Shown: piece after piece, positions 15,560-41,211 of the stretch
Numbering within the stretch: position 1 is the first letter of the stretch
How the letters are laid out: every line of letters begins with the position of its first letter
DNA from: Eledone cirrhosa
Lineage: Eukaryota
NCBI GenBank assembly: GCA_964016885.1
Contig: OZ024755.1
Location: forward strand, 19,406,001 to 19,470,000
Direction: 5' to 3'
Length of the DNA stretch: 64,000 nucleotides
The notes under the pieces: generated by a model
The model's database searches: none
Seen by the model: only the letters and a program-made list of their open reading frames with translations
What the model was told of the DNA's origin: nothing
Position numbers and translations under genes: made by a program

Positions 15560-15605
<46 letters not shown>

Positions 15606-16450: not shown

Positions 16451-16829
16451 GATGTAAAGTTATGTTGGTACCACAATATCCAGTCCTAAATAAATGAGGT
16501 CGTGTAGGTATCATGACAAAAAAAAAAAACACAGTCCACGTTGTAATGAGGCCGTGTAGGTAACACGGTAAAAACCTCCCAGTCCTCACTGTAAACTTGC
16601 TTGATGTTAGGAAGGGTATCCAGCCGTAGAAAACCCGCCAGACAGTCCTGAGCAAGACAACCAATCTTGCCTCAAGTGGGACAATTCGCGTCCAGACCGA
16701 TGCTAGCGTGGAAGATGGACGTTAAACGATGATGATGATGATATATCAAAAGTATATATTAAGTTAGAAACTCTCAATAGTCCCTTATAATTAAAATAGC
16801 TGAAGGAAAAATTTTTTCCCAGCCTTATA

Positions 16830-16968
16830 ATATAATTTAATAAAATAAAGAGAGATAAACACAGATATATACATATATTTGTTTGAATCATAAGGGACCT
16901 AAATCGCTAGGCTCCTTATGATTCGAACACATATGTATATATCTGTGTTTATCTCTCTTTATTATATT

Positions 16969-16976
<8 letters not shown>
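16830..16976. repeat. Fold-back (imperfect hairpin, about 65-bp arms) next to (TA)n
   Basis: ATAAAGAGAGATAAACACAGATATATACATAT..GAATCATAAGG / CCTTATGATTC..ATATGTATATATCTGTGTTTATCTCTCTTTAT. Confidence 0.85.
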
Positions 16977-17004
<28 letters not shown>

Positions 17005-17410
17005 ATTGTTAAAACTCAAATAATTTTTATAAAAATAATATTGAGTGATAGGATAGGATGGGTGGATATTCATATATGATCTGTGAAAAAACTATCTGGC
17101 AAAAAAACAAAACAAACAAACCACAAAAACAATTATATGCATGGTGGAATTCAATTGTTATTCTCTTTTGAATTAGGCCCCAGGTGGTGCCACACAACCC
17201 AACGATTTTTCCACTGTTTAAAGCACAGCAGGAATGCTTCTTCCAGAATCACTCCCAGCTGTGCTAATGAAGTGTTGGTTTTCAAAGAAGTCAGAAGAAG
17301 CCATATTTGGAGTAAGCAACACCTGCCCAAGATATCATGCAGTGGGATTGAACCCAGAAACTTACGATTGTGATATGAACTTCTTAGCTATATATATATG
17401 TATGTATATA

Positions 17411-17744
17411 TCATCATCATCATTTTACGTCCGCTTTTCCCTGCTTGCAAGGGTGAGACGGGAACTGATTCTGGCTTGATTTCTACAGCTGGATGCCCTT
17501 CCTAACACCAACCTCATTTACAGTGAGTGCTGGGTGCTTTTTTTGCTGTGGCACCTCAACGACCACTTTGCAGTGGAATGATAGGGACCCCAGTCCCTAC
17601 CATCTCATTTCTACAGCTGAGTAAACTGGAGCAATGTGAAATAAAGTGTCTTGCTCAAGGAAACAACACATCACCCGGTCTGAGAATTGAACTCACAACC
17701 TTTCGATTGCAAGGCCGATGCTCTAACAACTAAGCCATGTGCCT
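17411..17744 (-). mobile_element. SINE family A copy
   Basis: Reverse complement of 10150-10489, with (ATG)n tail. Confidence 0.92.
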
Positions 17745-17998
17745 CTGTATATATATATACACACACACAATCAACATATTTATGTATGTTGATTGCTACT
17801 TCTTGTCAGAAGAGTGCCATCCCTTCATTGAACATTGCATGATCATGTGCATGCAAGTGACTTTTCAGATCCACTTTTGTTTAGCAGGATACTTGGGGCA
17901 GTAGAGTGGGTAATATGAAAAATTCGGGACCCCGGCGGATGAGCTCCTGCTGTTTCCACGGCTAGTTTGGATCTAGCTCAACCATCGGGTCCCAAATT

Positions 17999-18040
<42 letters not shown>

Positions 18041-19883
18041 GTTTGTTATAGGAAAACATAAGAATGCTGAATATGCACTCTGACACACACTAACACACAT
18101 GTAGACACACATGTGTAGAGAGAAAAAAAAACACACACATGTAGACATCTAAACCTAAATACATTAGTGCTTCAGTAGTTTCTTGTCAGATTTTATTAAC
18201 TTCGAGATTATTTTATTTATGGAACTATATTTATTGAACTATAAATAATGTTCAATAATACTTTGTAGAAGTTTGTCACCATGTGAAGAGTACTTCAGAG
18301 CTGGTCAGTATGCCATGTTTGATGACAGAACTTGAAACTGAGAGAAGGATACTTGAAAGAAGAGGGAAATAAAATAAATGAAATAAAAACAGAAATATTG
18401 GAAATCTGATGTGAAAAGAAAATGATAATCTGAGTAATATCTTTTCTGAAAATATGCTTCCTTTATATTTGTGAAAGATATACACTGACATACACATAAC
18501 CACGCACTCTCATATACACACATTTACACACACACACATACACATACACACATATATAGACACACACACACACACATATATACACACATTCACATAAACT
18601 TACACACACAGAGACTTACACACAAACAGAGTTAGCACACACTAACACACTCACACACTGAGTCAGCACACACTAACACACTCACACACTGAGTCAGCAC
18701 ATACACACACTGAGTCAGCACATACACACACCGAGTCAGCACATACATACACACACACCTACCAAGTCAGCACACACACACAAACACACACATACACATA
18801 TAAGAGAAACGTATTTATGTTGTTGCTTCATTTACATAATCAATTGTGATATTTCTCACTTTGGTCAGATTGGTGAAAGAATCAAAATTAATTACACTTC
18901 GAAGTAGGTTCAATACTTTGATGCAGGATCAAAGACTAATTGTGGTTGACTTGGCCTAGATAATACTTAGAATATTAGGTGTAATAATGATAGCCTGCTC
19001 TTGAGAACTTCACATACAAACCTTGTATGACTAAGTAACTCTTGCAAAATTTACAAAGAAATTTTCCACATCGGTACATCCCAAGATATACATATGTTTG
19101 ATCAGATAATCAATAAAATGAATGAAACTATTGTTTGATTTTATATATTCTTGTTAACATTAAATGTGAACTCAGAACATAAACAGCCAATATATTAGTT
19201 TGTAAAATAGTGCTTCTGCCGTATTTTTGACTAAGTAAATTAGTCTCTTAGTTTGGGTTATAAAAGCCCACAGAATAGAAAAAAAGGGATTAGCATTGAT
19301 GTACATGAGACACGAACCCAAATCTTTGGCTGTCATGACCATTGTGCTAACCCTTATATATATATACTTTTGTAGGGAACTTTTGTTCAATGAACTAATG
19401 TTTCTTTATGTACACATATATAAATACATGTAAATGTGGTTGGTGTTAGGAAGGGCATCCAGCTGTAGAAAACCCGCCAGATAGTCCTATGCGAGCAAGA
19501 CAACCACTCTTGCCTCAAGTGGGAAAACTCCCGTCCAAACCCATGCAAGCGTGGAACATGGACGTTAAACGATGATGATGATGAATGATGATGATGTGTG
19601 TATTGTATATATATATATATATATATATATAGTTCTTTTTTTAGTGATCGCAAGATCCCTAACCTCATTTGTTTACTGCGTGGGGTAGAACTCATCAAAT
19701 CAGATCAAGGAAACTGTTTCCATTGGTCTTTCCAAGGCTGATACCACATACTGGTCACAGCTCCTGGCACAAGAGCAACGTGAAATAATTGATCACCGAG
19801 TCTGGGAGTCAAACTCACAACCTTAAGATTGGGAATCAAACTCTCTAACACTAAACCACATACCTTCATATATATATACATAT

Positions 19884-20011
19884 AATAATTAAGTCAAATA
19901 TGTAAAATTTGGCTTTGTTATTATAAATTATAGCTGTACTGCAAGTATACTGCAGTATAGCTATAATTTATAATAAACGAAGCCAAATTTTACATATTTG
20001 ACTTAATTATT
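19884..20011. repeat. Fold-back hairpin (about 60-bp arms) next to (TA)n
   Basis: AATAATTAAGTCAAATATGTAAAATTTGGCTT...TACTGCA / TGCAGTA...AAGCCAAATTTTACATATTTGACTTAATTATT. Confidence 0.88.
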
Positions 20012-20478
20012 TTACATTACTCTGGAGTAAACAAACCAACCTGTGTACTTTGTTGAGTGCTCCAATCTGCATACTGAGGTGTCGGTAAACAACCAACATA
20101 TACTAAAAATAAATATATATATATCTCATCATCATCATTATCACCATTTAGCATCCATTTTTCCACATTTACAGTGTGGAACTGGAGAGCTCTATTATGA
20201 GGAAGGACAGGCCAGTTGGCTGTACTGAACCTGTCTCACAGAAGGACCATAGTTTTGGAACCCAGTACCAGATGGCACTGATACGAGGAGCCTAACACAT
20301 CTCACAGCATAGCCATAGTTTTGAGTGCACCCAGTACTGGATGGCACTGCTATGAGGAGGGTCATATATATATTTCTATATTAAATATTGTATGTACTCT
20401 ATTATGTATTGAGTACCTTACTGTGGTTACCCCTGATTGAACCTGGGATACACACATATATATATATATATGTGCTTG

Positions 20479-20931
20479 TGTGAGATGTGCAATGCTGCAT
20501 GGTAGTGAGACATGGGCAGCAACTGCAGAAGATATGCGATGGCTGGAGAGAAATGAAGCAAGTATGCTCCGTTGGATGTGTAATGTCAATGTGCGTGAAC
20601 GACCAAGCATGGATGAGTTGAGAGAGAAACTGTGTATAAGAGGGATAAGTTGTGGTGTGCAGGAGAGAAGACTGAGATGGTATGGACATGTGATGCGCAT
20701 GGGGGATGACCGATGGGTAAAAAAGTACCAGGAAATCCCAGTAGAAGGAAGACGCAGTAGAGGAAGACCACGAAAAACATGGGCGGAGGTGGTGAGAGCA
20801 GACCTCAGATCGCTGAAACTCACGAAGGAGATGACGAAGGACCGTGACAAGTGGAGAGATGCTGTGTTGAATAGGACCCGTCTAACCCTTGCAAGCAGGG
20901 AAAAGCAGACGTAAAATGATGATGATGATGA
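20479..20931 (+). mobile_element. 5'-truncated RTE-type LINE with intact C-terminal frame and (ATG)n tail
   Basis: AMLHGSETW...MLRWMC...ERRLRWYGHVMRM...GRPRKTW...DRDKWR; the 3' end matches the SINE-A tail. Confidence 0.9.
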
Positions 20932-21479
20932 TATATGACTAACTATGAGCTTCAATTGATTGGACAGTTAAAATCATATCAAGATTTATTACTTAGTTTT
21001 ATATACATTAAAGTTGTTGCTTGCCCAACCTATTATTACACTATAGCCTTTAGTGAAGAAACATTATCACTTTTTGTTTACTTTCTAAGATGGTTAATAT
21101 CAATTTTGTTAATATCAATTTTGTCAACAAAACATCTGTAAGAAAATAAAATTTCAAGATGTTGGCGCTGTTCCACATAATTCTATTGATCATCAATTGG
21201 TATTGCAATTTCATCATTGTAAGATTATAAAAAAGAAAACATAAATAAATGAATGAATAAATAAATAAATAAAAATTATGTCTGTCTATCTGAAGAATTA
21301 CAGTACGTTAGATAGATAGATAGATAGATAGATGGATAGATAGATAGATGGATAGATAGATGGATAGATGGAAGATGGGGGGACGAATGGGTGGACAGAT
21401 AGATAGATGGACAGATAGATACATAGATAGATAGATGGGTAGATGGGTAGATAGATAGATGGATGGGTGAACGGATAGA

Positions 21480-21790
21480 TATGTTTCTTTTTATTTGCCA
21501 CCAGGGCATCAAAAAGTGGGACAAGTACAATGGGGGGAGTTTACGTGAAAAGGCGAGTAAAGAAAATATATAACAAATATAAAATTAACAAAATTAACAA
21601 TAAGTCCTCAATAGGGAGGGGGCGTTTGGGGGGTCGCACACACCCCCGAAAAAAGTGTGCAACCCCTTCTCCTCAGGAGCACAGAGAAGGGGTGCTCCCT
21701 CATTCCTTCCTCTTTTCCACCTACAGGCTTATGTAAAGAGAGGGCCCATTCACACGGGCCATTCTCGCCACTTTCACCCACCTTTCATAA
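21480..21790 (-). mobile_element. Probable LINE 3' end inserted in GATA/GGAT microsatellite (possibly L1/Tx1-like)
   Basis: Minus strand ends ...GTGGCAAATAAAAAGAAA; a similar end occurs at about 36920-37110(+), and possibly 6895-7020(-). Clade assignment is tentative. Confidence 0.4.
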
Positions 21791-22092
21791 TGGATGGGTA
21801 GATGGGTAGATGGGTAGATGGATGGATGGATGGGTGGGTGGACGGATGGGTGGACGGATGGGTGGACGGATGGGTGGACGGATGGGTGGACGGATGGGTG
21901 GACGGATGGGTGGACGGATGGGTGGACGGATGGGTGGACGGATGGGTGGACGGATGGGTGGACGGATGGGTGGACGGATGGGTGGACGGATGGGTGGACG
22001 GATGGGTGGACGGATGGGTGGACGGATGGGTGGACAGATGGGTGGACGGATGGGTGGACGGATGGGTGGACAGATAGATGGATAGATAGATG

Positions 22093-22160
<68 letters not shown>

Positions 22161-22200
22161 GGCAGGCAGGCAGGCAGGCAGACAGACAGATAGACAGACA
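21790..22200. repeat. (GGTGGACGGATG)n 12-bp array followed by (GACA)n
   Basis: Direct reading. Confidence 0.95.
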
Positions 22201-22536
22201 GAAAGATGTCAGATAAAATAATATGGTTGACTCTGATATGATGGATAGAAAGGTAGATAGATAGAGAAATAGACAGACAGTCAGACAGAAAAAAAGACAG
22301 ACAGACAGACAGAAAGATAGACAGACAGACAGAAATATGTCAACTAAAATAATGTGGTTGACTGTGAGAGATAAGTTAATGATGTTAATTTAAGGTTTCA
22401 CTTTTCACAAAATATTTACAATGTCAGTATTTGGAGATTTCACGAAACCTAAAAAAGGCAGATTCTGTAGAATGTTCTGAATAACTGAATTTCTGAGACT
22501 GGGTTTAAGATGTTGTGATGTTTATGATGTGCCAGG

Positions 22537-22571
<35 letters not shown>

Positions 22572-22574
22572 TTT

Positions 22575-22915
22575 CATCATCATCATCGTCATTTTACATC
22601 CGCTTTTTCCCTGCTTGCAAGGGTGGGACGGGAACTGATTCTGGCTTGATTTCTACAGCTGGATGCCCTTCCTAACACCAACCTCATTTACAGTGAGTGC
22701 TGGGTGCTTTTTTGCCGTGGCACCTCCACGACCACTTTGCAGTGGAATGATAGGGACCCCAGTCCCTATCATCTCGTTTCTACAGCTGAGTAAACTGGAG
22801 CAATGTGAAATGAAGTGTCTTGCTCAAGGAAACAACACATCACCCGGTCTGAGAATTGAACTCACAACCTTTCGATTGCAAGCCCAATGCTCTAACCATT
22901 AAGCCATGTGCCTCC
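22575..22915 (-). mobile_element. SINE family A copy
   Basis: Near-identical to 17411-17744. Confidence 0.92.
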
Positions 22916-23204
22916 ATATATATAAACAAGCAAATTATATATAAACAAGCAAATTATAAACATAAACATGTAAGTATGTTTTTGAAACGGTGCGCGAGTT
23001 TGAAATTAGAAATTAGAAAATATAAGCTTTCACCATATTTTAGACTAAAGAAATTTCTAGCCTGATATTGGCGTTTATAACCCTCGGAGAAATGGAAAAA
23101 GATGAGTGTTGCCGTTCATTATATATATATATATAATAATAATTGTTTCTACTTTTGGCACAAGGCCATCAAATTACCCAGTACATTACTGGTACTTTAT
23201 TTTA

Positions 23205-23405
23205 AATACAAGGACAATTGGTTAAGCCTTCGCTACATTTATTGATTGGTGATGTGCGTTTTGCTATTGAAAACAGAGGTCCGACGAGCTTTTGATTCCA
23301 GAGTCAGGCCAGATCGATACAGATCGAACCTTGCACTGATCAATAGTAAAACGCGTGTCACCAATCAATAAACATAATGAAGGCTTAACCAATCATCCTT
23401 GTATT
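23205..23405. repeat. Fold-back element (about 65-bp arms) bracketed by inverted SINE-B ends
   Basis: AATACAAGGA..TTGGTTAAGCCTTC..TTTATTGATTGGTGA..GCGTTTT.CTATTGA / TCAATAG.AAAACGC..TCACCAATCAATAAA..GAAGGCTTAACCAA..TCCTTGTATT. Confidence 0.85.
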
Positions 23406-23929
23406 ATTATTGAATTGGCAGTATCGGTAGAGGGTTGGACGCCATGCTTTTTAGCATAGTTACGTCCCTTTACAGTCTGAGTTCAAATCCCGACGAGGTT
23501 GACTTTGCCTTTCATCCTTACGGGGTCGATAAAATAAAGTACCAGTAATACACTGGGATAATTGCTGGCCTTGTGCCAAAAGTAGAAACAATTATTTAAA
23601 TACACCACGACTCACTATCATTTTCCCTCTACTATACTCTTCTTACATCCAACTCCGCCATCTCACTCACCCCAGTAAATCATTTCCAATTCTGCCCTCC
23701 ATCCCTTCAATCTTTTTAATTTCTCATTCTGTCTTCTGAAAGAGCAAGACACTTTATTTCATGCTGCTCCTTCTGCGTAGAGTTGTGACCGGTAGATAGT
23801 ATTAGTTAAAGGAAACATTGTTTCCTTGGTCCGATTTGATGAACTCCACCCTACTTGGTAAGCAAATGTCTGGGATCCTGTCAATTGATTCCTTTTACTC
23901 TGCTATTTGAAAGGTGTTTGATAAAAGGT

Positions 23930-24270
23930 GTACATTGTTAAAAGCCTGAAAAGTGCTAGATCTTTCCAAGAAGGTGGACACTACTAAAAGCCTCTAAATG
24001 GCCAGGTATTGACAAGAGGGTGTAGATAAGAGGGTGTACAAGGGTGTACACTGCTAAAAACCTCTAAAAGGCCAGGTGTACACTGTTAAAACCCTATAAA
24101 TTGCCAGATGTTTGCAAGAGAGTGTACACTGCTAAAACCCTATAAATGGCCAGATGTTTGCAAGAGAGTGTACACTGTTAAAACCCTATAAATGGCCAGA
24201 TGTTTGCAAGAGAGTGTACACTGCTAAAAGCTTCTAATGAGCTAGGTATTTGAAAGAGGGTATACACTGC
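23930..24270. repeat. Degenerate 46-bp tandem repeat (GTGTACACTGCTAAAACCCTATAAATGGCCAGATGTTTGCAAGAGA)
   Basis: Direct reading. Confidence 0.85.
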
Positions 24271-24275
24271 TAAGG

Positions 24276-24550
24276 TGGAGCTACATGGCCTAGTGATATG
24301 GTTGTTGGACTTACGATCATAATTTTTATGGGTTCGATTCCTGGGTTGCATGTTGTGTTCTTGAGCAAAACACTTTATTTCACGTTGCTCCAGTATACTC
24401 AGCTGTAAATGAGTACCAGCAATAGCTGGGGGTTAACCCTGTGATGGACTGGCGCCCTGTCCAGGGGGAATCTTGTAAACTCAGTCGCTTCATGCTATGA
24501 AACTGGGATAAGCACTGGCCTAACAAGCCTTCTGGCTTGAGACAGACTTT
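24276..24550 (+). mobile_element. tRNA-derived SINE sharing the SINE-A central domain but with a different 3' part
   Basis: TGGCCTAGTG, GGTTCGATTCC, CTTGAGCAAAACACTTTATTTCAC, then AACCCTGTGATGGACTGG...GTCGCTTCATGCTA. Confidence 0.75.
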
Positions 24551-25989
24551 AGATACATTGCTAAAAGCTTCTAAAGGGCCAGCTGTTTGAAAATTATCAA
24601 AATAATTATAACATTCTTTTTACTAATACTGTTCTGCATCACTTGCCATAATATAAACAAAGCTCACGCTGGAAGTGTTACACACTCACATAGAATGAAA
24701 CAGATCTGGCATTATATATATTGATTAATACATGCATGCATGCACATATACATATAAATAGTAGCTACTTGCAGAGAGGTTTAATATCATTTGCATCTAT
24801 AATTATCAATCAGACAAATAAGAGAATTAGAATATATATGAAATGAAAAGCTACTAAAATTATCTGCCACTTTGTGCTACCAATTCAACCAAACTGACTA
24901 ATAATATGCCGCAGCTAATATTATCTTATTTTGCTTTATGAAAACATATTTAACCCTTCTCATATTAAACTGCCTGAAACAGCTCTTGGTTCTACAATAT
25001 AAAACTGTTTATTTTAAAGTGTTTATATTATTTATTTCAAAACTTTCCATTATAATGTTATGTAAGAACTGTTGTTAAGTTATCTCTCTGAAGTTAGATG
25101 AATAATAAGGAAGTTATTTATATTGTTAAGTCTCTCTAAATTTTTGATTGTTTTAAAAGTTATTTGAAAATCATAGGGGACAGTATCTTTCATTGCGGTG
25201 GATTGGCAGTATCGGTAGAGGGTCGGACGCCATGCTTTGACGCATAGAGTTACGGCCCTTGCCATTCTGAGTTCAAATCCCGCCGAGGTTAACTTTGCCT
25301 TTCATCCTTACGGGGGTCGATAAAATAAAGTACCAGTGGGTAATTTCTGGCCTTGTGCCAATAGTAAAAACAATTATAAATATGGTAATGAAATGGTTAA
25401 AGATATAGGCAGGATCTTTCATTAGAAATATGGTAACGGAATTGTTAAAGACAGACTGCATCTTTTGTTAGAAATATGGTAATGAACTGGTTAAAGACAT
25501 AGACTGTATCTTTCATAAGAAATATGGTAACAAAATGGTTAAACTAAACATTTATTTAACTTTACCATATTCACATCACTTTCATTCGAATTTTTGTAAA
25601 AGACAACATTAGCCTTTTGCAACAGTTTCAAAAGAGTTGTATCATTGAAGATGTTTGTGTATTAAAGGTTAACTCTTTCGAATTTATATTCAAGTCAAGC
25701 TAACCCTATCAGAAATCTATTCAAAAAAGGACTTTGCTAATATCAGTCAGAATGAAAAATTAACCCCGACCCGACCCATCCAAAAAAACAAAACAAACCC
25801 ATTGAGGAATTAGAGATGAAATTCCAAATGTAGAAGCAAAGCTTAGGATCGACAGGTCTCTCACAGAAAACCAGGCAAATATCAGTTACAAAAGAGCTTT
25901 TTACATCTACATATTCCTCAAAGACACTGATGCCATTGTTCTATTTATTTTCTTAGTTTCAACATAACTCCTACTTTGATTTTTTCTTG

Positions 25990-26025
<36 letters not shown>

Positions 26026-26251
26026 GTAAAATGTAAGTCCAAAGAATCATTATATATTTATGTATATATATTTATATAAACACACACACATATATATATA
26101 TATATACACATCATCATCATCAACGTTTAACGTCCGTGTTCCACGCTTGCATGGGTTTGGACGGGGGTTTTCCCACTTGAGGCAAGAGTGATTGTCTTGC
26201 TCGCATAGGACTGTCTGGCAGGTTTTCTACAGTTGGATGCCCTTCCTAACA

Positions 26252-26307
<56 letters not shown>

Positions 26308-26400
26308 TATATACACACACACACACATATATACACGCACACACACACATATATATACACACACACACACACACATATATACACACACACATATATATAT

Positions 26401-26439
<39 letters not shown>

Positions 26440-26597
26440 CAAACACACATCATATCATCATCCTCGTTTAACGTCCACTTTCCACGCTAGCATGGGTTAG
26501 ACGGGAGTTGTCCCACTTGAGGCAAAGTTGGTCGCTCATATAGGACTATCTGGCAGGTTTTCTACAGCTGGATGCCCTTCCTAACACCAACCACATT

Positions 26598-26634
<37 letters not shown>

Positions 26635-26792
26635 GGTACGTTATTCCGGGTTGAATCGTAGGTAACCACAGTAAGTAAGGTACTCAACTGATGATTTCTA
26701 AAGAATGAAACAGTTCTAGTCCTGTAGAATCTCATCTATATTTATATATATACACACACACACACATATATATATATATTCCTGGAGAATAA

Positions 26793-26825
<33 letters not shown>

Positions 26826-26877
26826 TATATATGTATTCATTGAGAATAAATATATATATATATATATATATATGTAT

Positions 26878-27240
26878 ACATACATATATGTATACAGACG
26901 TACAGTAGTATGCATATATATACATACATGCACACATATATATATGCACGTATCGGTTTACCGAACATTTATTATAATGCTTGGTTTGTTCGTTTGTAAA
27001 CAAACATCCCGAATTAGGCCGTACAATGTTTAGGCAACCACGTCACCTTTTTGTTCAACACTGACACAGGAACGATGTACTAGTTTCAAGCTTATTAGCT
27101 ATCATCAGCATCGTCAACAAACCGAGCATTATAATAAATGTTCGGTAAACCGATACGTGCATATATATATATGTGTGTATATATGTATGTATATATATAT
27201 ATAAATACTACTGTACGTCTGTATACATATATGTATGTAT
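26878..27240. mobile_element. Fold-back element (about 110-bp arms) whose spacer contains a hammerhead ribozyme motif
   Basis: Arms TGCACGTATCGGTTTACCGAACATTTATTATAATGCT / AGCATTATAATAAATGTTCGGTAAACCGATACGTGCA, plus ACAGACGTACAGTAGTA / TACTACTGTACGTCTGT. Confidence 0.85.
27072..27114 (-). ncRNA. Minimal type I hammerhead ribozyme motif (Penelope/retrozyme type)
   Basis: Minus strand ACGATG-CTGATGA-T AGCT AATA AGCT T-GAAA-CTAG-TA-CATCGT: 6-bp stem I, full core, palindromic stem III, GUA cleavage triplet. Confidence 0.8.
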
Positions 27241-27879
27241 GTATACATACATACATACTTACATTTAAGTAACTGCCGTACTAAGATTGAGAAATGAAAT
27301 TTCGTTTCATTCTATTCCATTTATATATATATATATTTATATATATATATATATACACAAGATACTAAGAGCAAAAAATCCATTTTTAGATCGGTAGTTT
27401 GAAATGTATATTCCATTTCTATGAAAAACAAAACAAAAAAACAACTAAACTCCGGAGTCAGTGAATGAGAAAAGTCTGAAGAAAAATAACAACATAAAAT
27501 GAATATTGAACATGAAAGATTATACAGTATTATATTTGAAGATCTCAAAATATAAATATAATCGAAATATATCTAGAAAGAAAGTCTTAACTTTACATTG
27601 ATGATGATGGTGATGGGGATGATGATGATGATGATGGTGATGGTGATGATGATGATGGTGATGATGATGTCACCGCCTAGAAGAAGTGGTTATATTTGAA
27701 ACAAGAGAAGTGTAAGTAGTAAGGAATGGCAGATAGATTTTACTGAAAAGAAATGTTTTTTTTTTACTAAGTATTTCTTATAACTTATAATTTACATACT
27801 GAGTTCAAATTTCACCAAGGAGAACCATGTCTTTTCATCTTTCGAGGAAGGGCATTCATATAATAAAGAACTAAGATTT

Positions 27880-28610
27880 TCCAGCCATAGAAACCATGCG
27901 AAGAAAGGGATATGAGGACCCTTCTGTCACAACACAACAACCAGCTTTTCTGGTGCTGGTTCCATCCAACATGCACCCAGTATACACCCAGTAAGCTGTT
28001 TGGTGATAGGAAGGGCATATATCAGTAGAAATCAGTCCAAGAAAGGGATGAGAGGACCCTTCAGTCACAACACAACAACCAGCTTTTCTGGTGCTGGTTC
28101 CATCCAACATGCACCCAGTATACACCCAGTAAGCTGTTTGGTGATAGGAAGGGCATATATCAGTAGAAATCAGTCCAAGAAAGGGATATGAGGACCCTTC
28201 TGTCACAACACAACAACCAGCTTTTCTGGTGCTGGTTCCATCCAACATGCACCCAGTATACACCCAGTAAGCTGTTTGGTGATAGGAAGGGCATATATCA
28301 GTAGAAATCAGCCCAAGGAAGGGATGAGAGGACCCTTCAGTCACAACACAACAACCAACCTTTCTAGTGCTGGTTCCATGTAAAATGCACCCAGTAGACC
28401 CTGTATTTCTTTTTTGGTGATGGGAAGAGCATTCATCAGTAGAAACTATACCAAGAAAGGGATGAGAGGACCCTTCAGTCACAACACAACAACCAACCTT
28501 TCTAGTGCTGGTTCCATGTAAAATGTACCCAGTAGACCCTGTATTTCCTTTTTGGTGATGGGAAGAGCATTCATCAGTAGAAACTATACCAAGAAAGGGA
28601 TGAGAGATGT
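27880..28610. repeat. About 138-bp tandem repeat (about 5 copies) derived from a SINE 3' segment
   Basis: Unit contains GGTGATAGGAAGGGCAT...GTAGAAA, compared with SINE GGTGTTAGGAAGGGCATCCAGCTGTAGAAA. Confidence 0.85.
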
Positions 28611-30119
28611 TCCAATGACAGTGGTGTCAGACAATGAATCAGAATTCACAGGGTTAAAGTGTTGGTTAAACCTACTTTGGTTCCAAGAAAACTGACAGTC
28701 CTATCTATTGTCCAAAATTTAAAAGCAAGAGCTGTGTAAACAATTAAATCCTCATTGCAAAAGTCTGATGAGTATTTAGTTAAGGTTTTTTACCTATCAT
28801 AGACACCTGATGCCTGCAAGTTATCTCTGACTGAGAAATTACTTGGCAAACATTAAGGTTGTTGGATAAATGGTTCATTATATGAAGAATCTAATGAAAT
28901 TTCCTGCAGTTGCATGTTATCAGATTCATGATGGCAAAAACACAATTTGGATTAAATGAGAAGATGGAAAAGCTCAGTTAATGTCAGTTGAATAAATAGC
29001 TGCTCATCATCTATACTAACACCTACACTACCAACACCCTAACCCCTATACTATCCTCCCAGCAACTTAAGCAGTCAACCAACACCACCATGTAGGTGCT
29101 ATAGAAGTGTAAAGGGAATTTCGAAGCTATAGAGAAAATAATTCTTTCTACTTTTGGCACCAGGCCAGCAATTATCCCAGTGCATTACTGGTACTTTATT
29201 TTATCGACCCTGTAAGGATGAAAGGCAAAAGTTAACCTCGGCGGGATTTGAACTTAGATCATAAAGGGAGGTAACTCTATGCTTCAAAGCATGGCGCCCA
29301 ACCCTCTACCGATACTGCCAATGGTTTCTGATTTAGGCACAAGGCCAACAATTAATTTAGGGTGAGGAGAAAGTCAATTAAATTGACCCCAGTGCATTAC
29401 CGGTACTTTATTTTATTGCCCTCGTAAGGACGAAAGGCAAAGCTAACCTCGGCAGGATTTTAACTCAGAATGTTAAGGGAAGTAACTATATGCCATAAAG
29501 CATGTTGTCCAACACTCTACCAATTACTACCAATCCACCGCCCTTGAAGCTGCAAAGTATAACAATCAACACAATTTGTGTTTCCCAGTTAAAGCAATGT
29601 TATATTTATAGTAGAGATAGCAGCTATTTTGTTCTCTATTCTATTATTAATATGTAAACACATCTGGTTAACATCTGCACATTGAAGTTATCTATTCAAT
29701 CTGTGATATATCAGTGTTATGCTAATGTTGTTGTAGCTTTGTTTATGTTTTGCATGCTTGCACATGGTCACTGACTTTTTTTAATGATCAACAAGATCCC
29801 AGAACTCACTTGCTTACTGAGTCGGATGGAACTTCTCAAATTGGACCAAAGAAACAATGTTTCTATTGGTCTTGCCATTGCTGATACTGTCTACTGGTTG
29901 CAACTCCTGGCAGAAAGAGCTACATGAAATAAAGTGTCTTGCTCAAGGACATAACACATCACCCAGTCCGAGAATTGCGAATCCAATTCTATCTACCCGT
30001 TGCAGCTTCTGACAGAGAGAGCAATGCTCAAGGACATAAGACATCACCTGAACCAGGAATCGAATACACAACCTCATGATTTTGAATCCATTTCTCTAGC
30101 CACTAATCCACACGATAGT

Positions 30120-30460
30120 GATATCAAAATCAGGAAAGTTCAGGCATGGAAAGTGGATCATAAACTGTAAGAAATGTGGAAGTCAAGACTGCCAAAAAGA
30201 AGGAAGATAAGGTTGTTCTCAGCCACTGTTGAATCAGTACTCTTGTATCTCAGTGAGACATGGGCACTCATGAAGTGAATAACAGGTATTGATGATTGCT
30301 ACACAAAGAAGTAACTTGTGGCCCTGGGTGGGAGAAGCACATGACGAACGAAAGCCTGTATAGAAACCTCTCAAAAGAAGTAGTAGTAGTAGTATGAAAG
30401 TTGGTTCTGTGGGATCCTCAGCACAGAATGGGAAAACATAGTGGGCATCATGTCACATGA
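30120..30460 (+). pseudogene. Decayed RTE-type LINE fragment
   Basis: Residual ...KIRLFSATVESVLLYLSETWAL..., related to the 34012-34713 element. Confidence 0.65.
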
Positions 30461-32464
30461 AGCAAGAAACTTGGCTTAGAATCCATCCAACAACTGAAGA
30501 TGGCAATAGTATATAGAGAAGTGCTGTAAAGGGAATTTGTTGTCTTGGCCTATTTATAAGTATGGCCATATTTAGACCTTGTGAGGCCTGGAGCAGTTCA
30601 GGTTTGGGGATCCTAGTGCTGTTCCTAAAGGGGGCCCGTTTGACAAGGCGTGCCCAGGGCATTCACCTTCCCCGCCTCCCGATACATCTGGCCCTGAGTG
30701 TGAACTTGGTCTAAATAACTAACAGTCAGTATCTTGCTTTGCTACATAGAGTTACGGCCTTTTCCATTCTGAGTTCAAATCTCGCCGAGGTTAACTTTAC
30801 CTTTCACCCCTTACGGGGTCGATACAATAAAGTACCAGTTATGCACTGGGTAATTGCTGGCCTTGTGCCAAAAGTAGAAACAATTATTTAATATGCCAAA
30901 CTGTTCGATGTAATGAATAGGTTTTTATGGTGTGTCTTCTGGTTAACATTGGTAAACAACGAGGCCAATTTATAAAAGGTGTTTGGAGATTTAAATGTAT
31001 TCATTTATTGGAGTAGACCTATTATAACTGTTACAAATACTACATGCTACTTAATAGTAAATGGATATTTTAAAATGCGTCTATTAATAAACTAAAAAGA
31101 CACAATGGAAAAATCTCATCTGAGTGTGTCTTGTGTTTAAAGTTAAATAAAAAACAACAGCACAAGTCAAACTGACAAAGAGAGCTTAACACTACTACTT
31201 ACACCTGGAAAGATTAACTATTAATTGAAAGTGGAAAAGTTAATTTCAAATTATATAGTTCAACTTCAAGTATTGAAACTGAGATAAGGTTTTAATCTGG
31301 ATGGCGAGGGGAGCTAAAATAAAAATAAAAATAAAATAACAACGAACACACGGAGTCAATTATTGTAGAAAACTGCACTTAAAATGTATTTCTAAAAATA
31401 CACGAACAAAGCATTTTATCGTACGAAATATTCTCGATATTTCTTTCTTTGAAATATAATGAAAGGAAATAAAGTAGAGAGAAACGTGAAAAGAAGCAAG
31501 AAAACTGGGGAGCTTTCAAAAGCGAGAGTAAAATGTAACAACAAATATAAGGTAGAAAGAGTGTAAAAGGCGAAATATAAAAAGGAGGTGAGATAAAGAG
31601 AAGCAGTAAGGTAGAGAAGATAAGAGTAAGAGGTAGTGGAAAGTGAAACAGAAGGAAGAAGAGAAACAAGAGAATATTTAGACATTTAAGTCAACTAATA
31701 GAACTCTTAATTGAACAACTGAGCATTCGATTGACTTAATTTAGTCATAGAAAAATAATATAGTCGTAAAACAGCCCCACCTTTCTCTCGTATGTGTGCG
31801 TAGCTCGGAGATCAGAGAGTCACTCCTGTTAGAGCCCCTACTTCTCCGAATTGAGAGACTACAGCTCCGATACTAAGGACACGTGGTTAGAATGTCCCAG
31901 GAAAGAATAGCTGGGTAGATTTTACGGGCGAAACCAACGGGCAGGAGACCCAGGGGTAGTCCTTGAGCAAGATGGTTGGATAACTTCCATGAGCTCGGTT
32001 GATCACGCTTGGGGATCTACCCGGAGCAGTGGAAGAGGGTTGCTTTTGACAGGACCCGCTGGGGGGGAGTGTTTGGGGACTGCCCCCACGACCCTCTCAG
32101 GAATAAGTGGGCGAAGAAAAGAAGTTTCTAATAAAGCCAGCGGGGCTAAATCTTTAGAATATGAGTTCAAAACTGAGGGAGAACAGGGCTAAGACAATGG
32201 AAAAAATAACAACCACGGAAAACCGAACAGCTCCATCTCCTCAGCCAACATTTGGAAATCACTACAGTTTCATAACATTAAGATTGACACTGTTCATTCC
32301 AACGCACACTGGGACGTTAGAAAACAGATAGTGAAAAAGGCAGGGCAAGTTATATCTTTCAGTGAATTACACAAATAAAGACGAAAAAGTATCCCAAGTG
32401 CGTCAACTGACAAAGAAGGGATATCCGTTGATCTTTCCTTTATCCTGTGCGCCCCCCCCCCCCC

Positions 32465-32496
<32 letters not shown>

Positions 32497-33834
32497 TGCA
32501 AGCTATTTAGAACACTGGTTTAACCGCTTTACTTCGCTCCGAAGAAGAGATATTATCTCGAAAATTAAAGACATTTAAATAAATCTAAGGTAAAAGACTA
32601 ATTGTCAACAATATCTTTTGGATTTGCATTCTTTATTCTATGTCCATATGTCTGCATGTCCATATGTCCTGCATTGTTTTGGCTTTATTATACATATACA
32701 AACGTTTATATATATATATATATATATGAAAACAGGGAGAAAAAGACGATTATTAGGAAGAAAAATATTTTTTTTTCCCTTTTTATTTATTTCTCTCTTT
32801 TTTTCTGGGTTAGAAAATGATTAAAACGAAATATTTTACTTTGTGTGAAGTGTTAAGGTATTAGTTGATTTATTTATTAATTAACAATGGCATTTATTTA
32901 TTTATTTATATATTTAATAATTGTCTATTACCGGTTTCAGTGTATATATATATATATATACAGAATTAGCCGTCGAAACGGCTTGAGCTCAGCCGTCGGG
33001 GAGTTACTTGTTCCTATATATATATATATATATATATAAAACTTGGGTCAACCCAAGTTCAGAGTAAAGGCACTTGCTGATGAATGAAACGAGCTTCTTA
33101 GCTATTTCACCATGCTTACATCCACACACACACATAGACACGTGAGCGTGTCCAAGGAAGGCCATTACTGATTCCTTTTCAAAGTGGCTCTTTAAACCGA
33201 CGAAAGGTTCCTATGTCTTTCGCCAGACCTTACAAAGCTGTGTATATATCCACATCACTATTATTCTGATGTATAGAAGTGTCTCCTGTAGACGTGAACT
33301 CAAAACGTGAAGGAACAAATCAAAATATCTAACGAGCCCCTCTCTCTCTACTAGAAATAGGAGTTTGATTCAAAGGGAAAGAAAGACACATAAAACAATG
33401 GAATCATATGTACAGCAACCGACGTGATGGAAATATCTTGACCGTCAGCTCAAACACGACTGGTCTGAAGACACCTCATATGAAACCAAAACCTCCATTG
33501 CGTTCAGTAATGGCAATAATAACGAACATCCAGATGATTTAATGATAAAAAAAATGATAAAACGTTCCAATTACATTAATATCAATCTAGAAATGAGATG
33601 CTATGATAACTAATCCATTGTATAGATGTTTCTATACCTTGACTTCTTACTTTTATATCATTGCTTAATCACATAAAACATGTTGCTACGTCTGTAACAA
33701 TTTCCAAGTATCTTTCGGTTTCATTTACATATATATTTTATTGTTCCACACACACAACATAAATGATAGGCAACAACATTCTCTCCATATATATATATAT
33801 ATATATATATACATACACATACACGGAGAGAAGG

Positions 33835-33908
<74 letters not shown>

Positions 33909-33915
33909 GGAGAGA

Positions 33916-33979
<64 letters not shown>

Positions 33980-34009
33980 GAGAGGTTATATATATAATAA
34001 TATATATAT

Positions 34010-34712
34010 CTCTAGGGCGGGTAAAATTTCCGAGATCCATGGACGAGTTCTCTCCAGCAGTCTCTGTCCCTCATTATCGCTGCCATGTCGTGCGTCTCCA
34101 ACAGACCAGTGTCTGTCCTTAGGGAATCAACATACGTTAACTTTGGTCTTCCTCTTCCAGTGTGTCCATGTAGGGGCTCCCACAGGAGCATTGAGTGCAA
34201 TGTCAACTCTGGATGTCGGTGAGCATGTCCAGCTAACCTCAATCTCCTCTGTGTCACTTTTGAGCTGACTTTTGGGAGGCTCCCATACAGCTTTGAGTTT
34301 TTCATCCTCAGTGAATACTGATTAATGTTCAGAGTCATCCTCAGCATTCTCGTGTAGCACCCATCCACCATCTGAGTGAGTTTCTTGGTCAGTCTCCAAG
34401 TCTCAGACCCGTACAGCAGCACATACTCCACTACAGCAATGAAGAGGCGGATTTTCAGGTCTTTACGAAGGTCCGACTTCCACACCGATCTCAAGCTGTG
34501 GCACGCCGCCCAGGCTTTGCACTTCTTCTCAAACACATCATCTTCTGAATTCCCAATCTTTGCTCTCAAATACAGGAAGTCCTCAACCAATTCCAGCGGC
34601 TTCCCGCCTACATTAGTGATCACGTCTGGCTTCTCAACATTCTCTACCAGATATTTTGTTTTAGTCTCATTCATTCTCAGCACCACACTCATCGATGTAT
34701 TCACACTCAACA
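34010..34712 (-). mobile_element. 5'-truncated RTE-type LINE, open 233-aa frame (late RT and C-terminal region)
   Basis: LRMNETKTKY...LELVEDFLYL...AW....WKS...KIRLF...VLLYGSETW...RRLRLAGH...GRP. Both flanks carry (C)GGAGAGAAGGTTATAT/GAGAGGTTATAT motifs, as expected for a target duplication. Confidence 0.9.
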
Positions 34713-34726
34713 CGCGGAGAGAAGGT

Positions 34727-34772
<46 letters not shown>

Positions 34773-35112
34773 CTAAACCTTATCGTCTTTGTTTCTAAGC
34801 AAATGTTGCCAATAATGAAAAGTAGACGAACTAAAAATGTTCTTTAGAATAAAATTCTTTTAACAAGTTCCTCTCTTTTCATTCATTTATTTCTTCCATA
34901 ACTGCATACAGAACTTAATTATATAAATATATATTAAAGTTATATCTGTATGAATACAGACTCAGTTACACACTACGCACTTACTATATATATATATATA
35001 TATATATATACATACGTATGTACATACATACAGAGAGAGAGAGTCGATAAAACAGTAACATACTCTGCTCCCTGTACTCACACTTACGGGTCTTTTCCTT
35101 GACACTGATTTC

Positions 35113-35292
35113 TTTAATCGTCTGATGAGATAGATACGTACATATTTAAATACACACTAGGTGTAAAATATGAATATTCTTCCTCATATTTGTACTATTA
35201 TATATTATTATAATTACTATTATTGATTACATTTTGTCTACTCTAGTTATGCACTTAGTGAAAGTTGTGTCGAAACAATTGTAAAGATTAAA
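35113..35292 (+). ncRNA. Type I hammerhead ribozyme motif with about 135-nt expansion in loop II
   Basis: TTTAATCGT-CTGATGA-GATA...TGTC-GAAA-CAATTG-TA-AAGATTAAA: stem I 8/9 paired, palindromic stem III, GUA triplet. Confidence 0.65.
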
Positions 35293-35326
35293 TGACTTAA
35301 AAACATTTACCTCTCATCTTAATTTA

Positions 35327-35357
<31 letters not shown>

Positions 35358-35412
35358 TTGTGTGTGTATATATATATATATATATTTGTGTGTGTGTGTG
35401 TGTATAGATATT

Positions 35413-35493
<81 letters not shown>

Positions 35494-36340
35494 CTGTGTG
35501 TGTGAGAGAGAGTTTGGTAATAAACATAACTGCCGAGCTGAACGGAGCAATGTAATGGGTAATTCCACTATCCATGTTGATCAGGCAGATACGACGATAG
35601 AGTCGGGAAAGCTCCGTTATTAATCTAAGGTTTATGGCGGAGGATTGGCAGTATCCGAGTTCAAATCCCGCCGTGGTCCACTTTACCTTTCATACTTATG
35701 GGGGTCGATAAAATAAAGTACCAGTAATGCACTGAGATAATTTCTGGCCTTGTGCCAAAATTAGAAACAGTTATTAATCTAAGGTTTAGAAAAGCTTTAG
35801 GAAAGAACTCCACCATTAGAAACAAAAAGTTAAAAAAATAACATCGAATCCATCTTGTCCGAGGCACGGCCCAGACTGGAGTGCAGTACCTGTTCTTCCC
35901 CTCTCCCCCGGTTCTTTTTCCTTTTTCTTCTTTTCAATTAATATTCTTTGTTCCTTTTAATAGCGTGTTTTGGTTTTTGTATAAACAGCTTTGTAAAACA
36001 TCTCAGTTGAAGCTAGTAAAGTGAGTTAGGCGGTGAATGATGCCGAGGTAATAGAATCTGTCTAACGGAACAGTTGTCGTGTAAACGCTTATCTTTGGGG
36101 TATTGATATAATATATATATATATATGTAAATATGATAATAATGGAGCTGCGGCGTTGCAAATGGGTTACATATGAAAAAGTAAGTCCTTCATCAGTGGC
36201 CTTCCAACCGTCCTAGGCATTTCATCGCTTTAAAGGCCATATACCTCAGGTTGGTGCGAACAACGGCTAAAAAAAGTCGTTGGGACACGTAAATAAAGGG
36301 GACGCTAGGGTGAACAAACAAAATGGTTTAAGCAACAGAA

Positions 36341-36386
<46 letters not shown>

Positions 36387-36391
<5 letters not shown>

Positions 36392-36575
36392 AACGAGTAG
36401 GACCCCGACGGCTGAGCTCAAGCCGTTTCGACGGCTAATTCTGGAGATTAGCCGTCGAAACGGCTTGAGCTCAGCCGTCGAGGTCCTACTCGTTCCTATT
36501 ACCCACTCTACTACCCTAAGTATTGAGTACTTTGGTGCGTTATGGTCCACCTGGTTCCTTACTACATTTCCTTCG

Positions 36576-36577
<2 letters not shown>
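36387..36577. mobile_element. (TA)n-embedded nested palindrome plus conserved tail (family copies at about 9110-9250, 17890-18003, 32963-33015, 44027-44225, 48665-48790)
   Basis: Near-perfect hairpin 36387-36499, followed by TTACCCACTCTACTACCC.AAGTATTGAGT.C..TGGTGCGTTATG.TCCA.CTGGTTCCTTAC. Confidence 0.85.
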
Positions 36578-36621
<44 letters not shown>

Positions 36622-37110
36622 CTGACTGAAATTGAACCCGTGCTTATATATATATGCATGCCTTTGCAGTTGTTTATATATATTGAGAGAGAGAGAGAGA
36701 GAGAGATTCCTCTCTATATCGTATCTCTATAGATAATAAATACAAGTCTAGTACTGTTTCAACTGGTTCCAGCCCGTCCAAAATATGGAGTTTTGTGCCA
36801 CCAGTCTAAGAAACCATTCCAATGATTTTGAATATTGTGAAACTGAAATGTTTAATGTCTCAATAAGTCAAAACGCCAGTCACATAACCCCCCCCCCCCC
36901 TATCTATCTATCTATCTATCTAGGGTTGTTATATCCACAGGGTGTAAAACAACTCTGCAGTAACGTTCCCCATCTAATGGGGATTTCGATTGTTTTATTT
37001 TATATATAGTTTATTGTTATTCATCATTGTTAAAGATTTTATGTAAAACCCCCGCCGTCACGTCTTGTAATGTCCCATTTTTGTGCGCCCCTGTGGCAAA
37101 TAAAGAAAGA

Positions 37111-37141
<31 letters not shown>

Positions 37142-38676
37142 GATATATACAAACGAGCAACAGACTAAACTTAAAACGGATGTGAAAAATTGGATAATTA
37201 AAATTAATCGGAAATTTATTGGTAAGAAACTGTCAGGAGATCTGGACAGCAGAAAGTCGTCAGAGAAGAACCTCCCCCTCCCCACTCAAAGCAAGTATTT
37301 CGGCCCTTAACTTCTATATTATATATATATTACTATATTATATATAGTTCCCATATTATATGACCAACCAGCATGAGTTGAGATATCTTGTGTACACACT
37401 GTATGGAAACAAAGTATTACTATATGTGGTAAGAAACTCTCAGAAGATCTGGAAAGTGCAAGGTTTTCAGAGAAGAAATCCGACCCCACCATGGCTCAAG
37501 TATATGTTTTGACCCTTAACTTAACGGAATAGATTTCATAAAGAGTTACCACCCTTTATGGTCTCAGTTCAAATCCCGCCGAGGTTAACTTTGCCTTTCA
37601 TCCTTACGGGGTCGATAAAATAAAGTACCAGTAATGTACTGAGTCGATTTAATCGACTTTCCCTTCTCCCCCAAATTGCTGGCCATGCGCCTAAATCAGG
37701 GACCATTTTTATAAAAAGGCGTTGAATTGGCAGTATTGGTAGAGCGCCAGACAATATGCTTTGCGTCATATAGTTACGTCCCTTACGTTCTAAGTTCAAA
37801 TTTCGTCGAGGATAGCTTTGCCTTTCATCTTTACGGGGTCGATAAAATAAAGTACCAGTAACATATCGGGATATATTTAATTGACTTCCCTCCCTCAAAA
37901 TTGCTGGCCTTGTGCCTAAACCAGAAACCATTATTGTAGTATAGTTTTATTCATTAATATCAACATTAGAGAATCGTTAAACCTCATTCGTTGACGTTCT
38001 CTACTAATTGCTACTCTCAATATATTTCGGTAAATAAAGAATTTATTGATATTTCTTCACATTTATATTGTCATCCCCACCTTCTCCCAAAATCACTAAA
38101 TGGCGCCTTCATTTTGAAGCCAAGTTTCAAGGTTATTTGAATTAATTAGGATACATAGGCCATAAATCTTTATTTCTGTCGATCAAATGTTTCTAATTAA
38201 TTCTGACAGTGGTACAAAATCACTAATTAATATGTAATTTGGTAGGACGTTATGGGTTAAATAACCTCATCAACCCACAATTGGCCAAACGTGGTGAGTA
38301 CGGCTACATTCCTGAAGACATGACCAAGACCAAACAGAAAGCGCTGTTGGAGGGGTCAACCAGGAAGGGATTGGATTGGATTGACTGGAAGGAATAGAGT
38401 TAATTTAATTTCATTAACATTCACATCATTTAGGAGGATCAAGATCCGTATCAAAATTACCACAGGGTGTTTTGCTTGACGCTCTAAAACGAACATGGGT
38501 AACCTCTTTTGAGCAGTGGGACGCATTTGAAATTACGCGTGCCATTCTGAAAGCCAAACAGGCTGTAGTTTGCCCACAACTGATCAAAATGCATATATAT
38601 ATGTATATATATAGTAATAATTCGTTTCTGAATTTGTTTAGCAAGATTCTTTATCTGAAAACGTGTGTTGAAACCG

Positions 38677-40155: not shown

Positions 40156-40288
40156 ACACAAAACAGATGGATGGTATTACAATAGATTCATTATTTTAAA
40201 CAAGATACGTTTATATATACATAACATATCATACATAACATATTATACATAAAATACATAGAATATTTAAAATATAAGATATATAATA

Positions 40289-40325
<37 letters not shown>

Positions 40326-41131: not shown

Positions 41132-41162
<31 letters not shown>

Positions 41163-41211
41163 AATATATAAATATATAAATATATATATAAATATATAAA
41201 TATATATATAA

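What the first reader, a model, noticed from the sequence alone, without database searches (positions are those of the whole stretch)
27072..27114. Complete minimal hammerhead, sense to the DPP6/10 pre-mRNA, in the loop of a long hairpin
All core nucleotides and a perfect stem I are present on the minus strand, so it would be transcribed inside the predicted 36-kb intron. Stem III is only the CTAG palindrome; such motifs are known to cleave poorly as monomers and better as dimers. That could explain tolerance in a host intron, or allow conditional cleavage (inference).
Basis: partly seen in the sequence, partly recalled or inferred. Interest (0 to 1): 0.75.

Follow-up and report, generated by a model that had tools for sequence, protein, structure and literature searches.

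The report
Truncated retrozyme copy in octopus intron
The self-cutting-RNA motif is real and lies in an intron of a dipeptidyl-peptidase gene, but it is one clipped copy of a small mobile repeat present thousands of times in this genome, and on its own it is likely idle rather than a switch for the host gene.

Summary
The type I hammerhead is real (C3 at 27108, predicted cut 27078/27077, minus strand). It is sense to a DPP4-family gene, inside a 36,092-nt intron confirmed by a spliced contig. It is not locus-specific: 9,874 exact core copies exist genome-wide. They belong to a 420-445-nt tandem non-LTR retrozyme family inserted into (TA)n with a Penelope-type footprint. The 'long hairpin' is two 5'-truncated copies inserted head to head. 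The motif is not complete: 10.1-11.1 is U-U (a family trait; natural U-U is published). This copy also lost the 5' strand of the distal stem I and the putative promoter. Stem III has zero predicted pairing as a monomer, and no same-sense family partner lies within 460 kb of the gene. That gene holds 13 sense and 9 antisense hammerhead-like motifs, so intronic tolerance is general. At family level, 15 of 16 two-armed insertions pair a long with a short 3' end, and 5' ends do not pile up at the cut site. The scan already reported this kind of family in this genome (e1-8665316, probably the same one) and similar intronic hairpins elsewhere. Verdict: ordinary copy of a known kind.

The parts
27072..27114 (-). 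Type I hammerhead core: 6-bp proximal stem I, CUGAUGA, U10.1-U11.1 mismatch plus 3-4 bp stem II, GAAA, palindromic ACUAGU stem III, GUA triplet; predicted cut 27078/27077
27061..27071 (-). U1.7 and the orphaned 3' strand of the distal stem I; its 5' partner strand is missing in this copy
26861..27114 (-). Hammerhead-bearing arm: unit positions -6 to about +253 from C3, 5'-truncated, 'short' 3' end running into (TA)n; 96.4% identical to the closest sampled copies over 168 nt
27115..27115 (.). Inversion junction; one base that matches neither arm's usual continuation
27116..27323 (+). Second, inverted arm: unit positions +122 to about +328, no hammerhead, 'long' 3' end with the ~60-65-nt tail, running into (TA)n
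26789..26860 (.). (TA)n-rich target flank, left; no target-site duplication can be read
27324..27355 (.). (TA)n target flank, right
6274..6388 (-). Host DPP4-family exon (transmembrane segment); 3' boundary of the intron
42481..42510 (-). Coding part of an alternative first exon (MSYAESDVSN); donor at 42480, second donor at 42489 predicted from the 807-aa isoforms
6389..42480 (-). 36,092-nt intron that holds the insertion; two further first exons lie 81 kb and 352 kb beyond the window, so all three first exons found read through the site

Best explanation
This is a 5'-truncated, two-armed copy of an abundant 420-445-nt tandem repeat with a hammerhead (a non-LTR retrozyme) sitting in a (TA)n tract of a DPP4-family intron, likely inserted by Penelope-type enzymes and likely inactive as a lone ribozyme. 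Shown: copy number, tandem unit, two-armed layout, two fixed 3' ends, loss of the distal stem I here, intronic sense position. Inferred: a Penelope-like endonuclease cut the (TA)n target on both strands. Reverse transcription started from both DNA ends at two fixed sites about 60-65 nt apart on an uncut multimeric or circular retrozyme RNA. The two cDNAs stopped early and were joined head to head at 27115, which makes the hairpin. In the parent arrays the ribozyme likely cuts as a double hammerhead through the ACUAGU palindrome and releases monomers that circularise. Here the core, stem I and stem II are predicted to fold, but stem III cannot form and the tertiary-contact arm is gone, so the intron is likely spliced uncut.
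For: 9,874 exact 34-nt core matches, reversed control 0. Units repeat at 419-445 nt, with 20 units in one 9.9-kb stretch. Of 65 loci, 19 are head-to-head with both arms reaching the anchor. Of the 16 whose two ends are both 'long' or 'short', 15 pair one long with one short end (14 of 15 without this copy; p about 1e-4 against independent ends), and most ends run into (TA)n. This matches the published PLE layout of an inverted 5'-truncated copy with a tail at one end only (PMC8557442, passages) and two RT start sites (PMC11167929). The ribozyme is conserved as a structure across subfamilies: the stem I pair 1.3-2.3 is A-U 21, G-U 17, U-G 14 of 58 copies, and a distal pair is G-U 41, A-U 13. 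Folding: distal stem probability 0.82-1.0 in full copies and 0 here; stem III 0.00. The double fold is favoured in natural tandems. No sense family partner lies in 468,302 bases read across the gene. In Xenopus about 43% of retrozyme copies are intronic (preprint 10.64898/2026.07.22.740005, passages).
Against: No cleavage assay and no raw RNA reads. The autonomous partner was not found: the Penelope-like ORF beside one copy (L031) has its own terminal repeat, had no Pfam or PDB hit, and only 1 of its 80 homologues shows the GIY-YIG family. Circular RNA is assumed, not shown. Some published retrozyme hammerheads cut well as monomers (coral about 0.8/min, mussel about 0.1/min; PMC7229834). In the long hairpin context stems I and II fold well here (probabilities 0.58-1.0), so slow cutting is possible. 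The covariation rests on a few subfamily events, not 58 independent ones; only 2 pairs change on both sides, fewer than in shuffles. The sequence upstream of the ribozyme is about as conserved as the ribozyme between subfamilies.
Confidence: 0.88

Rival explanations
1. The motif is the pseudo-LTR remnant of an autonomous Penelope-like element (min-HHR), not a retrozyme.
For: Same insertion footprint and (TA)n target; palindromic stem III as in PLE hammerheads (PMC4209133); a Penelope-like ORF lies 95 nt past one copy's 3' end, across (TA)n.
Against: Where copies run past one unit they continue into another unit of the same 420-445-nt repeat. The adjacent ORF has its own repeat and is not followed by this unit. 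The architecture is the canonical one (6-bp stem I, internal loop, distal helix; no extra base at 9/10.1).
Confidence: 0.06
2. The intronic copy cuts the host pre-mRNA at a level that matters, as a protein-assisted monomer or by pairing in trans with a family RNA, and so tunes DPP expression or splicing.
For: Intact core and folded stems I and II in context. The 3' substrate strand of the extended stem I is intact here. Family sequence is present in run X4, which holds spliced contigs. A PLE hammerhead is protein-assisted in vitro (PMC11167929). Natural U10.1-U11.1 exists and is the best-tolerated mispair (PMC3088659, passage).
Against: Stem III 0.00; distal stem lost; one of about 10^4 copies; no strand bias among 22 motifs in this gene. 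A partner would have to open its own stem I.
Confidence: 0.05
3. The hairpin is a DNA-transposon-like miniature element (MITE) or a chance fold-back that captured a hammerhead-like string.
For: Long inverted arms flanked by TA.
Against: The arms are two overlapping pieces of one tandem unit. Junction points differ from locus to locus and the two outer ends differ. 0 of 60 shuffles give the motif.
Confidence: 0.01

Closest known systems
Metazoan non-LTR retrozymes (Cervera and de la Pena 2020, PMC7229834; Li, Clavereau and Pollet 2026 preprint 10.64898/2026.07.22.740005)
   Same: Non-coding tandem units of a few hundred nt (published 150-450), GC under 50% (0.36 here), one type I hammerhead per unit, thousands of copies, many as monomers, highly paired predicted circle (about 45 kcal/mol below shuffles); a mollusc example (mussel, 350-390 nt) is known.
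   Different: Position 10.1-11.1 is never G-C (U-U 137-138 of 151 per position, also C-A and U-C; 0 exact G-C versions). The two-armed long/short layout was not seen in the passages read. Circular RNA and cleavage are not shown here. No cephalopod family was found in the paper searches.
EN+ Penelope-like element insertions: inverted 5'-truncated pLTR plus tail (PMC8557442; PAc in vitro, PMC11167929)
   Same: Head-to-head 5'-truncated arms, tail at one end only, AT-rich or (TA)n target, two internal RT start sites, both strands extended, no sign of ends at the hammerhead cut site.
   Different: No ORF; the tail is about 60-65 nt rather than 30-40; in vitro PAc showed no start-site difference between strands, whereas here the two arms nearly always use different sites.
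PLE minimal hammerheads (min-HHR; PMC4209133)
   Same: Palindromic 1-2 bp stem III, predicted dimer dependence, mostly dispersed single copies.
   Different: No extra base between 9 and 10.1, short stem II, no G10.1-C11.1, and a full extended stem I in intact copies.
Ultraconserved intronic hammerheads of amniotes (HH9/HH10; Rfam RF02275)
   Same: Type I, intronic, sense; best Rfam match.
   Different: 19 bits against a gathering score of 52; HH9 has a stable stem III and is single-copy and conserved (recalled), whereas this is a truncated high-copy repeat.

Membership tests
Type I hammerhead ribozyme | Core C3 U4 G5 A6 N7 G8 A9 / G12 A13 A14 A15.1 / U16.1 H17 | tested here: met
Type I hammerhead ribozyme | Stem I closing the motif | tested here: met
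   6 bp here; covarying 1.3-2.3 pair across subfamilies
Type I hammerhead ribozyme | Watson-Crick 10.1-11.1 pair (usually G-C) | tested here: not met
   U-U; 57 of 58 copies unpaired. A natural U-U variant is reported in PMC3088659, so this lowers expected speed, not the fold
Type I hammerhead ribozyme | Stable stem III as a monomer | tested here: not met
   probability 0.00; 6-bp palindrome only in the double fold
Type I hammerhead ribozyme | Extended stem I with loop-loop tertiary contact | tested here: not met
   the distal helix is predicted in full family copies and lost in this copy; the contact itself was not modelled
Type I hammerhead ribozyme | Self-cleavage | not testable with these tools
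   needs an assay; only contigs were available
Non-LTR retrozyme | Short tandem units of 150-450 nt each with a type I hammerhead | tested here: met
   family: 419-445-nt units; the window copy itself is a sub-unit fragment
Non-LTR retrozyme | Non-coding, low GC | tested here: met
   GC 0.36; ORFs of 120 aa or more over the units are only TA-repeat read-through
Non-LTR retrozyme | Expressed as linear and circular monomers | tested here: inconclusive
   family sequence lies in run X4, which holds spliced contigs; contigs cannot show circles, ends or strand
Autonomous Penelope-like element | RT plus GIY-YIG ORF flanked by this repeat | tested here: not met
   none in the window copy or in the four 10-kb stretches read for ORFs; whole genome not searched
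Penelope-type insertion footprint | Inverted 5'-truncated arm, tail at one end, microsatellite target | tested here: met
DPP6/DPP10 (catalytically dead DPP4 family) | Loss of the catalytic serine (recalled) | tested here: inconclusive
   Octopus orthologues keep GWSYGG and are named DPP4; this genome's catalytic exon was not read

The most novel reading that the evidence does not exclude
Intronic monomers like this one are latent cut sites. This copy keeps the whole substrate strand (palindrome, GUA triplet, extended stem I 3' strand). An abundant full-length family RNA could pair with it through the ACUAGU palindrome and supply the core and tertiary arm in trans, so retrozyme expression would set the rate at which thousands of octopus pre-mRNAs are cut.
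Probability: 0.05. Interest if true: 0.75.

Novelty: new member of a known kind. Interest (0 to 1): 0.2.

Why it matters
As a locus it matters little: it is a clipped repeat copy. The family is of modest use. It is a cephalopod retrozyme that spread to about 10^4 copies with a non-paired 10.1-11.1 position, which at least one published search filtered out (PMC3088659), so such families may be undercounted. Its insertions record two fixed start sites, one per DNA end, which bears on how Penelope enzymes copy retrozymes. One octopus gene carrying about a dozen sense hammerhead-like motifs is a ready test of whether such motifs cost a host transcript anything.

Tried and rejected
(1) 5' ends at the cut site, which would show cut linear RNA as template: not seen. 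The junction-type pattern gave 126 matches at the cut site, against 78 six bases downstream and 112 at -6. About half of the 100 listed cut-site matches (52, counted by eye) are a subfamily with U at position 17, and only about 10 of the 30 fetched were true junctions. The -6 count includes a tandem array. (2) A G10.1-C11.1 version of the family: 0 matches. (3) A cis partner: none on the sense strand in C15:19,362,000-19,826,400; the only other family copy spanning the ribozyme is antisense. (4) Autonomous partner: the ORF beside L031 is a separate element; no Pfam or PDB hit. (5) RNA evidence: no RNA holder listed. No listed contig spans this copy's junction, and the 65-nt X4 contig over the cut site has only 26 letters on one side, so it does not count as bridging. 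(6) Rfam miRNA hits at the hairpin are (TA)n artefacts far below gathering scores. (7) Lunse et al. 2017 on dimeric PLE hammerheads is not held; I saw only its title in a reference list. (8) Paper searches for 10.1-11.1 mismatches gave little; the useful passage came from PMC3088659. Supplementary figures of the retrozyme papers were not opened and may show cephalopod or U-U examples.

Full report
Observation. On the minus strand the stated coordinates hold a type I hammerhead. Stem I is 27114-27109 with 27077-27072, CUGAUGA is at 27108-27102, GAAA at 27087-27084, then CUAG and the UA of the cleavage triplet, with the predicted cut between 27078 and 27077. A descriptor scan found it as the only match in the window with a stem I of 5 bp or more, and 0 comparable matches in 60 shuffled windows. 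Rfam HH9 matches weakly: 19 bits, gathering 52, E 0.019 in a 201-nt scan.

Host gene. DPPIV_N exons lie 35-40 kb left of the window on the minus strand. The transmembrane exon is at 6274-6388, 97.5% identical over 40 aa to an Octopus protein named dipeptidyl peptidase 4. A 3,181-nt contig of run X4 covers exactly that exon with 0 differences, and its loose end is the exon that stops at 42481. The intron is therefore 36,092 nt. Octopus isoforms start with the matching peptides. Two more first exons lie at C15:19,550,999 and 19,821,694, so all three first exons read through the motif in sense. The orthologues keep the GWSYGG motif, so 'DPP4 family' is safer than 'DPP6/10', which lack the serine (recalled). 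That the genome is an octopus is inferred from these identities.

What the motif belongs to. A 34-nt core pattern has 5,169 + 4,705 = 9,874 exact matches in the 3.0-Gb genome, with 0 for the reversed control. Copies form tandems of 419-445-nt units. The unit is 36% GC and, folded as a circle, lies about 45 kcal/mol below dinucleotide shuffles in 2 of 2 monomers tried. That fits the non-LTR retrozymes of coral, mussel and axolotl (PMC7229834: passages and the first third of Results read). The window copy is two pieces: unit positions -6 to about +253 on the minus strand, and +122 to about +328 on the plus strand. They meet head to head at 27115, with (TA)n on both sides. The hairpin is simply their overlap.

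Insertion footprint. I classed 3' ends in 65 loci: the window, 29 anchored downstream of the ribozyme, and 35 from the start of the list, all on contig C1. There were 49 'short' ends, 30 'long' ends about 60-65 nt further on, and 5 earlier ends; most run into (TA)n. In 19 loci both arms of a head-to-head pair reached the anchor; the other 46 were single-armed or had a second arm too short to score. Of those 19, 15 were long+short, 1 short+short (one of its ends runs partly into the tail), 0 long+long, and 3 had an early end. 15 of 16 against an expected 0.47 gives p about 1e-4; without the window copy it is 14 of 15. I had seen the two ends; the pairing test was run after reading note e1-8665316, which reports two fixed ends 59 bases apart for a 422-nt family in this genome, probably a subfamily of this one. 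The layout matches Penelope-like insertions: an inverted 5'-truncated copy, a tail at one end only, and a microsatellite bias (PMC8557442, passages). In vitro a Poseidon enzyme cuts and extends both strands, starts at two internal sites that define the tail, and does not need ribozyme cleavage (PMC11167929: passages and second half of the main text). In line with that, 5' ends do not pile up at the cut site here. The mobilising element was not found. The Penelope-like ORF beside one copy has its own repeat and no Pfam or PDB hit; 1 of its 80 homologues carries PF01541.

The ribozyme in the family. In 151 copies with the upstream arm, out of 170 matches, the shared variants fall at N7, H17, loop 2, 10.1, 11.1 and stem I positions, and none at an invariant core base. 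The anchor pattern favours intact cores and part of the sample was selected. On 58 of the 108 distinct copies, 89.3% of cells pair. Pair 1.3-2.3 is A-U 21, G-U 17, U-G 14, and a distal pair is G-U 41, A-U 13. These are a few inherited events; only 2 pairs change on both sides, fewer than the shuffle mean of 3.5, so the support is modest. Position 10.1-11.1 is unpaired in 57 of 58 (U-U, C-A, U-C), and a G-C version has 0 matches. Natural U10.1-U11.1 is published as the best-tolerated mispair, and that study's final filter rejected such hits (PMC3088659, passages). Full copies fold an extended stem I with U1.7 unpaired, the base that contacts loop 2 in solved extended hammerheads (PMC11875169, passages). 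Stem III never forms in a single copy (0.00). In two natural tandem pairs the double hammerhead with a 6-bp ACUAGU helix scores -162.7 and -156.0 kcal/mol, against -156.5 and -149.7 for two single folds and -162.9 and -157.6 unconstrained. Dimer-dependent cutting in arrays is thus plausible, as reported for PLE and axolotl motifs (PMC4209133, parts 1-2 of 4; PMC7229834).

This copy. Truncation at -6 removes the 5' strand of the distal stem I (distal pairs 0.0 here, 0.82-1.0 for the outer five pairs in full copies) and the octamer/TATA-like upstream region. With the long hairpin formed, stems I and II fold (0.58-1.0); with only 30-60 nt of flank, stem I drops to 0.07-0.28. Across 468,302 bases read over the gene there is no second sense copy of the family; the one other copy spanning the ribozyme is antisense. 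The same scan gave 22 hammerhead-like motifs, 13 sense and 9 antisense (p=0.52). This is one gene with unvalidated motifs, but it shows no avoidance of the sense strand. In Xenopus 42-44% of retrozyme copies are intronic, though under-represented for intron size (preprint 10.64898/2026.07.22.740005: part 1 of 5 and passages). The simplest reading is an idle passenger about 3.6% diverged from its closest sampled relatives.

What remains open. No cleavage data and no raw RNA reads were available; contigs show only that family sequence occurs in a run with spliced contigs. Some retrozyme monomers do cut (coral about 0.8/min, mussel about 0.1/min; PMC7229834), so slow cutting is not excluded. The boldest reading left is trans cleavage: this copy keeps the full substrate strand, and a full-length family RNA could supply the rest. 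I put that at 0.05.

Novelty. Searches for hammerhead+octopus and retrozyme+cephalopod listed no description of this family; supplements were not opened. The scan has reported several such families in this genome and several intronic Penelope hairpins in other genomes; these are unchecked notes and not counted as evidence. Verdict: new member of a known kind, interest 0.2.

Noticed in passing
G000:C15:19,362,000-19,826,400 (L067-L069, L138-L175, window): The DPP4-family gene holds 22 hammerhead-like motifs from several repeat families, 13 sense (one doubtful) and 9 antisense; two pairs are back to back.
   Followed up: partly
G000:C1:70,055,000-70,076,000 (L065, L066): A long 442-nt array of this family in which most units carry C3A or other core damage (19 of 20 units in L065 by the listed variants), suggesting DNA-level satellite expansion of a dead copy.
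   Followed up: partly
family unit, about -89 and -46 from C3 (e.g. L031:768-815): An octamer-like ATGCAAAT (motif recalled; exact in 55 of 66 copies that reach it) and a TATA-like box lie upstream of the ribozyme, a possible snRNA-type promoter; absent from the window copy.
   Followed up: partly
window 26861-26990 / 27116-27264: The roughly 130-bp imperfect intronic duplex (85.5% over 138 columns) could be a substrate for A-to-I editing, which is extensive in octopus (recalled).
   Followed up: no
window 46191-46287: Tail-only fragment of the same family between TA tracts.
   Followed up: partly
window 59290-59400: A near-perfect hairpin of about 105 nt; parts recur beside TA tracts in other loci (L108, L084), so it is probably another repeat family.
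   Followed up: no
L031:1271-4760 and L034:4519-8400: Two different Penelope-like elements (label recalled from motifs); L034 has a canonical G10.1-C11.1 hammerhead upstream of its ORF.
   Followed up: partly
window 42480 and 42489: Two alternative 5' donors 9 nt apart on the first exon explain the 810- and 807-aa Octopus isoforms.
   Followed up: yes
run X5 (organism B): Family sequence with the hammerhead region lies in a second organism at about 90-99% likeness, so the family predates that split.
   Followed up: no
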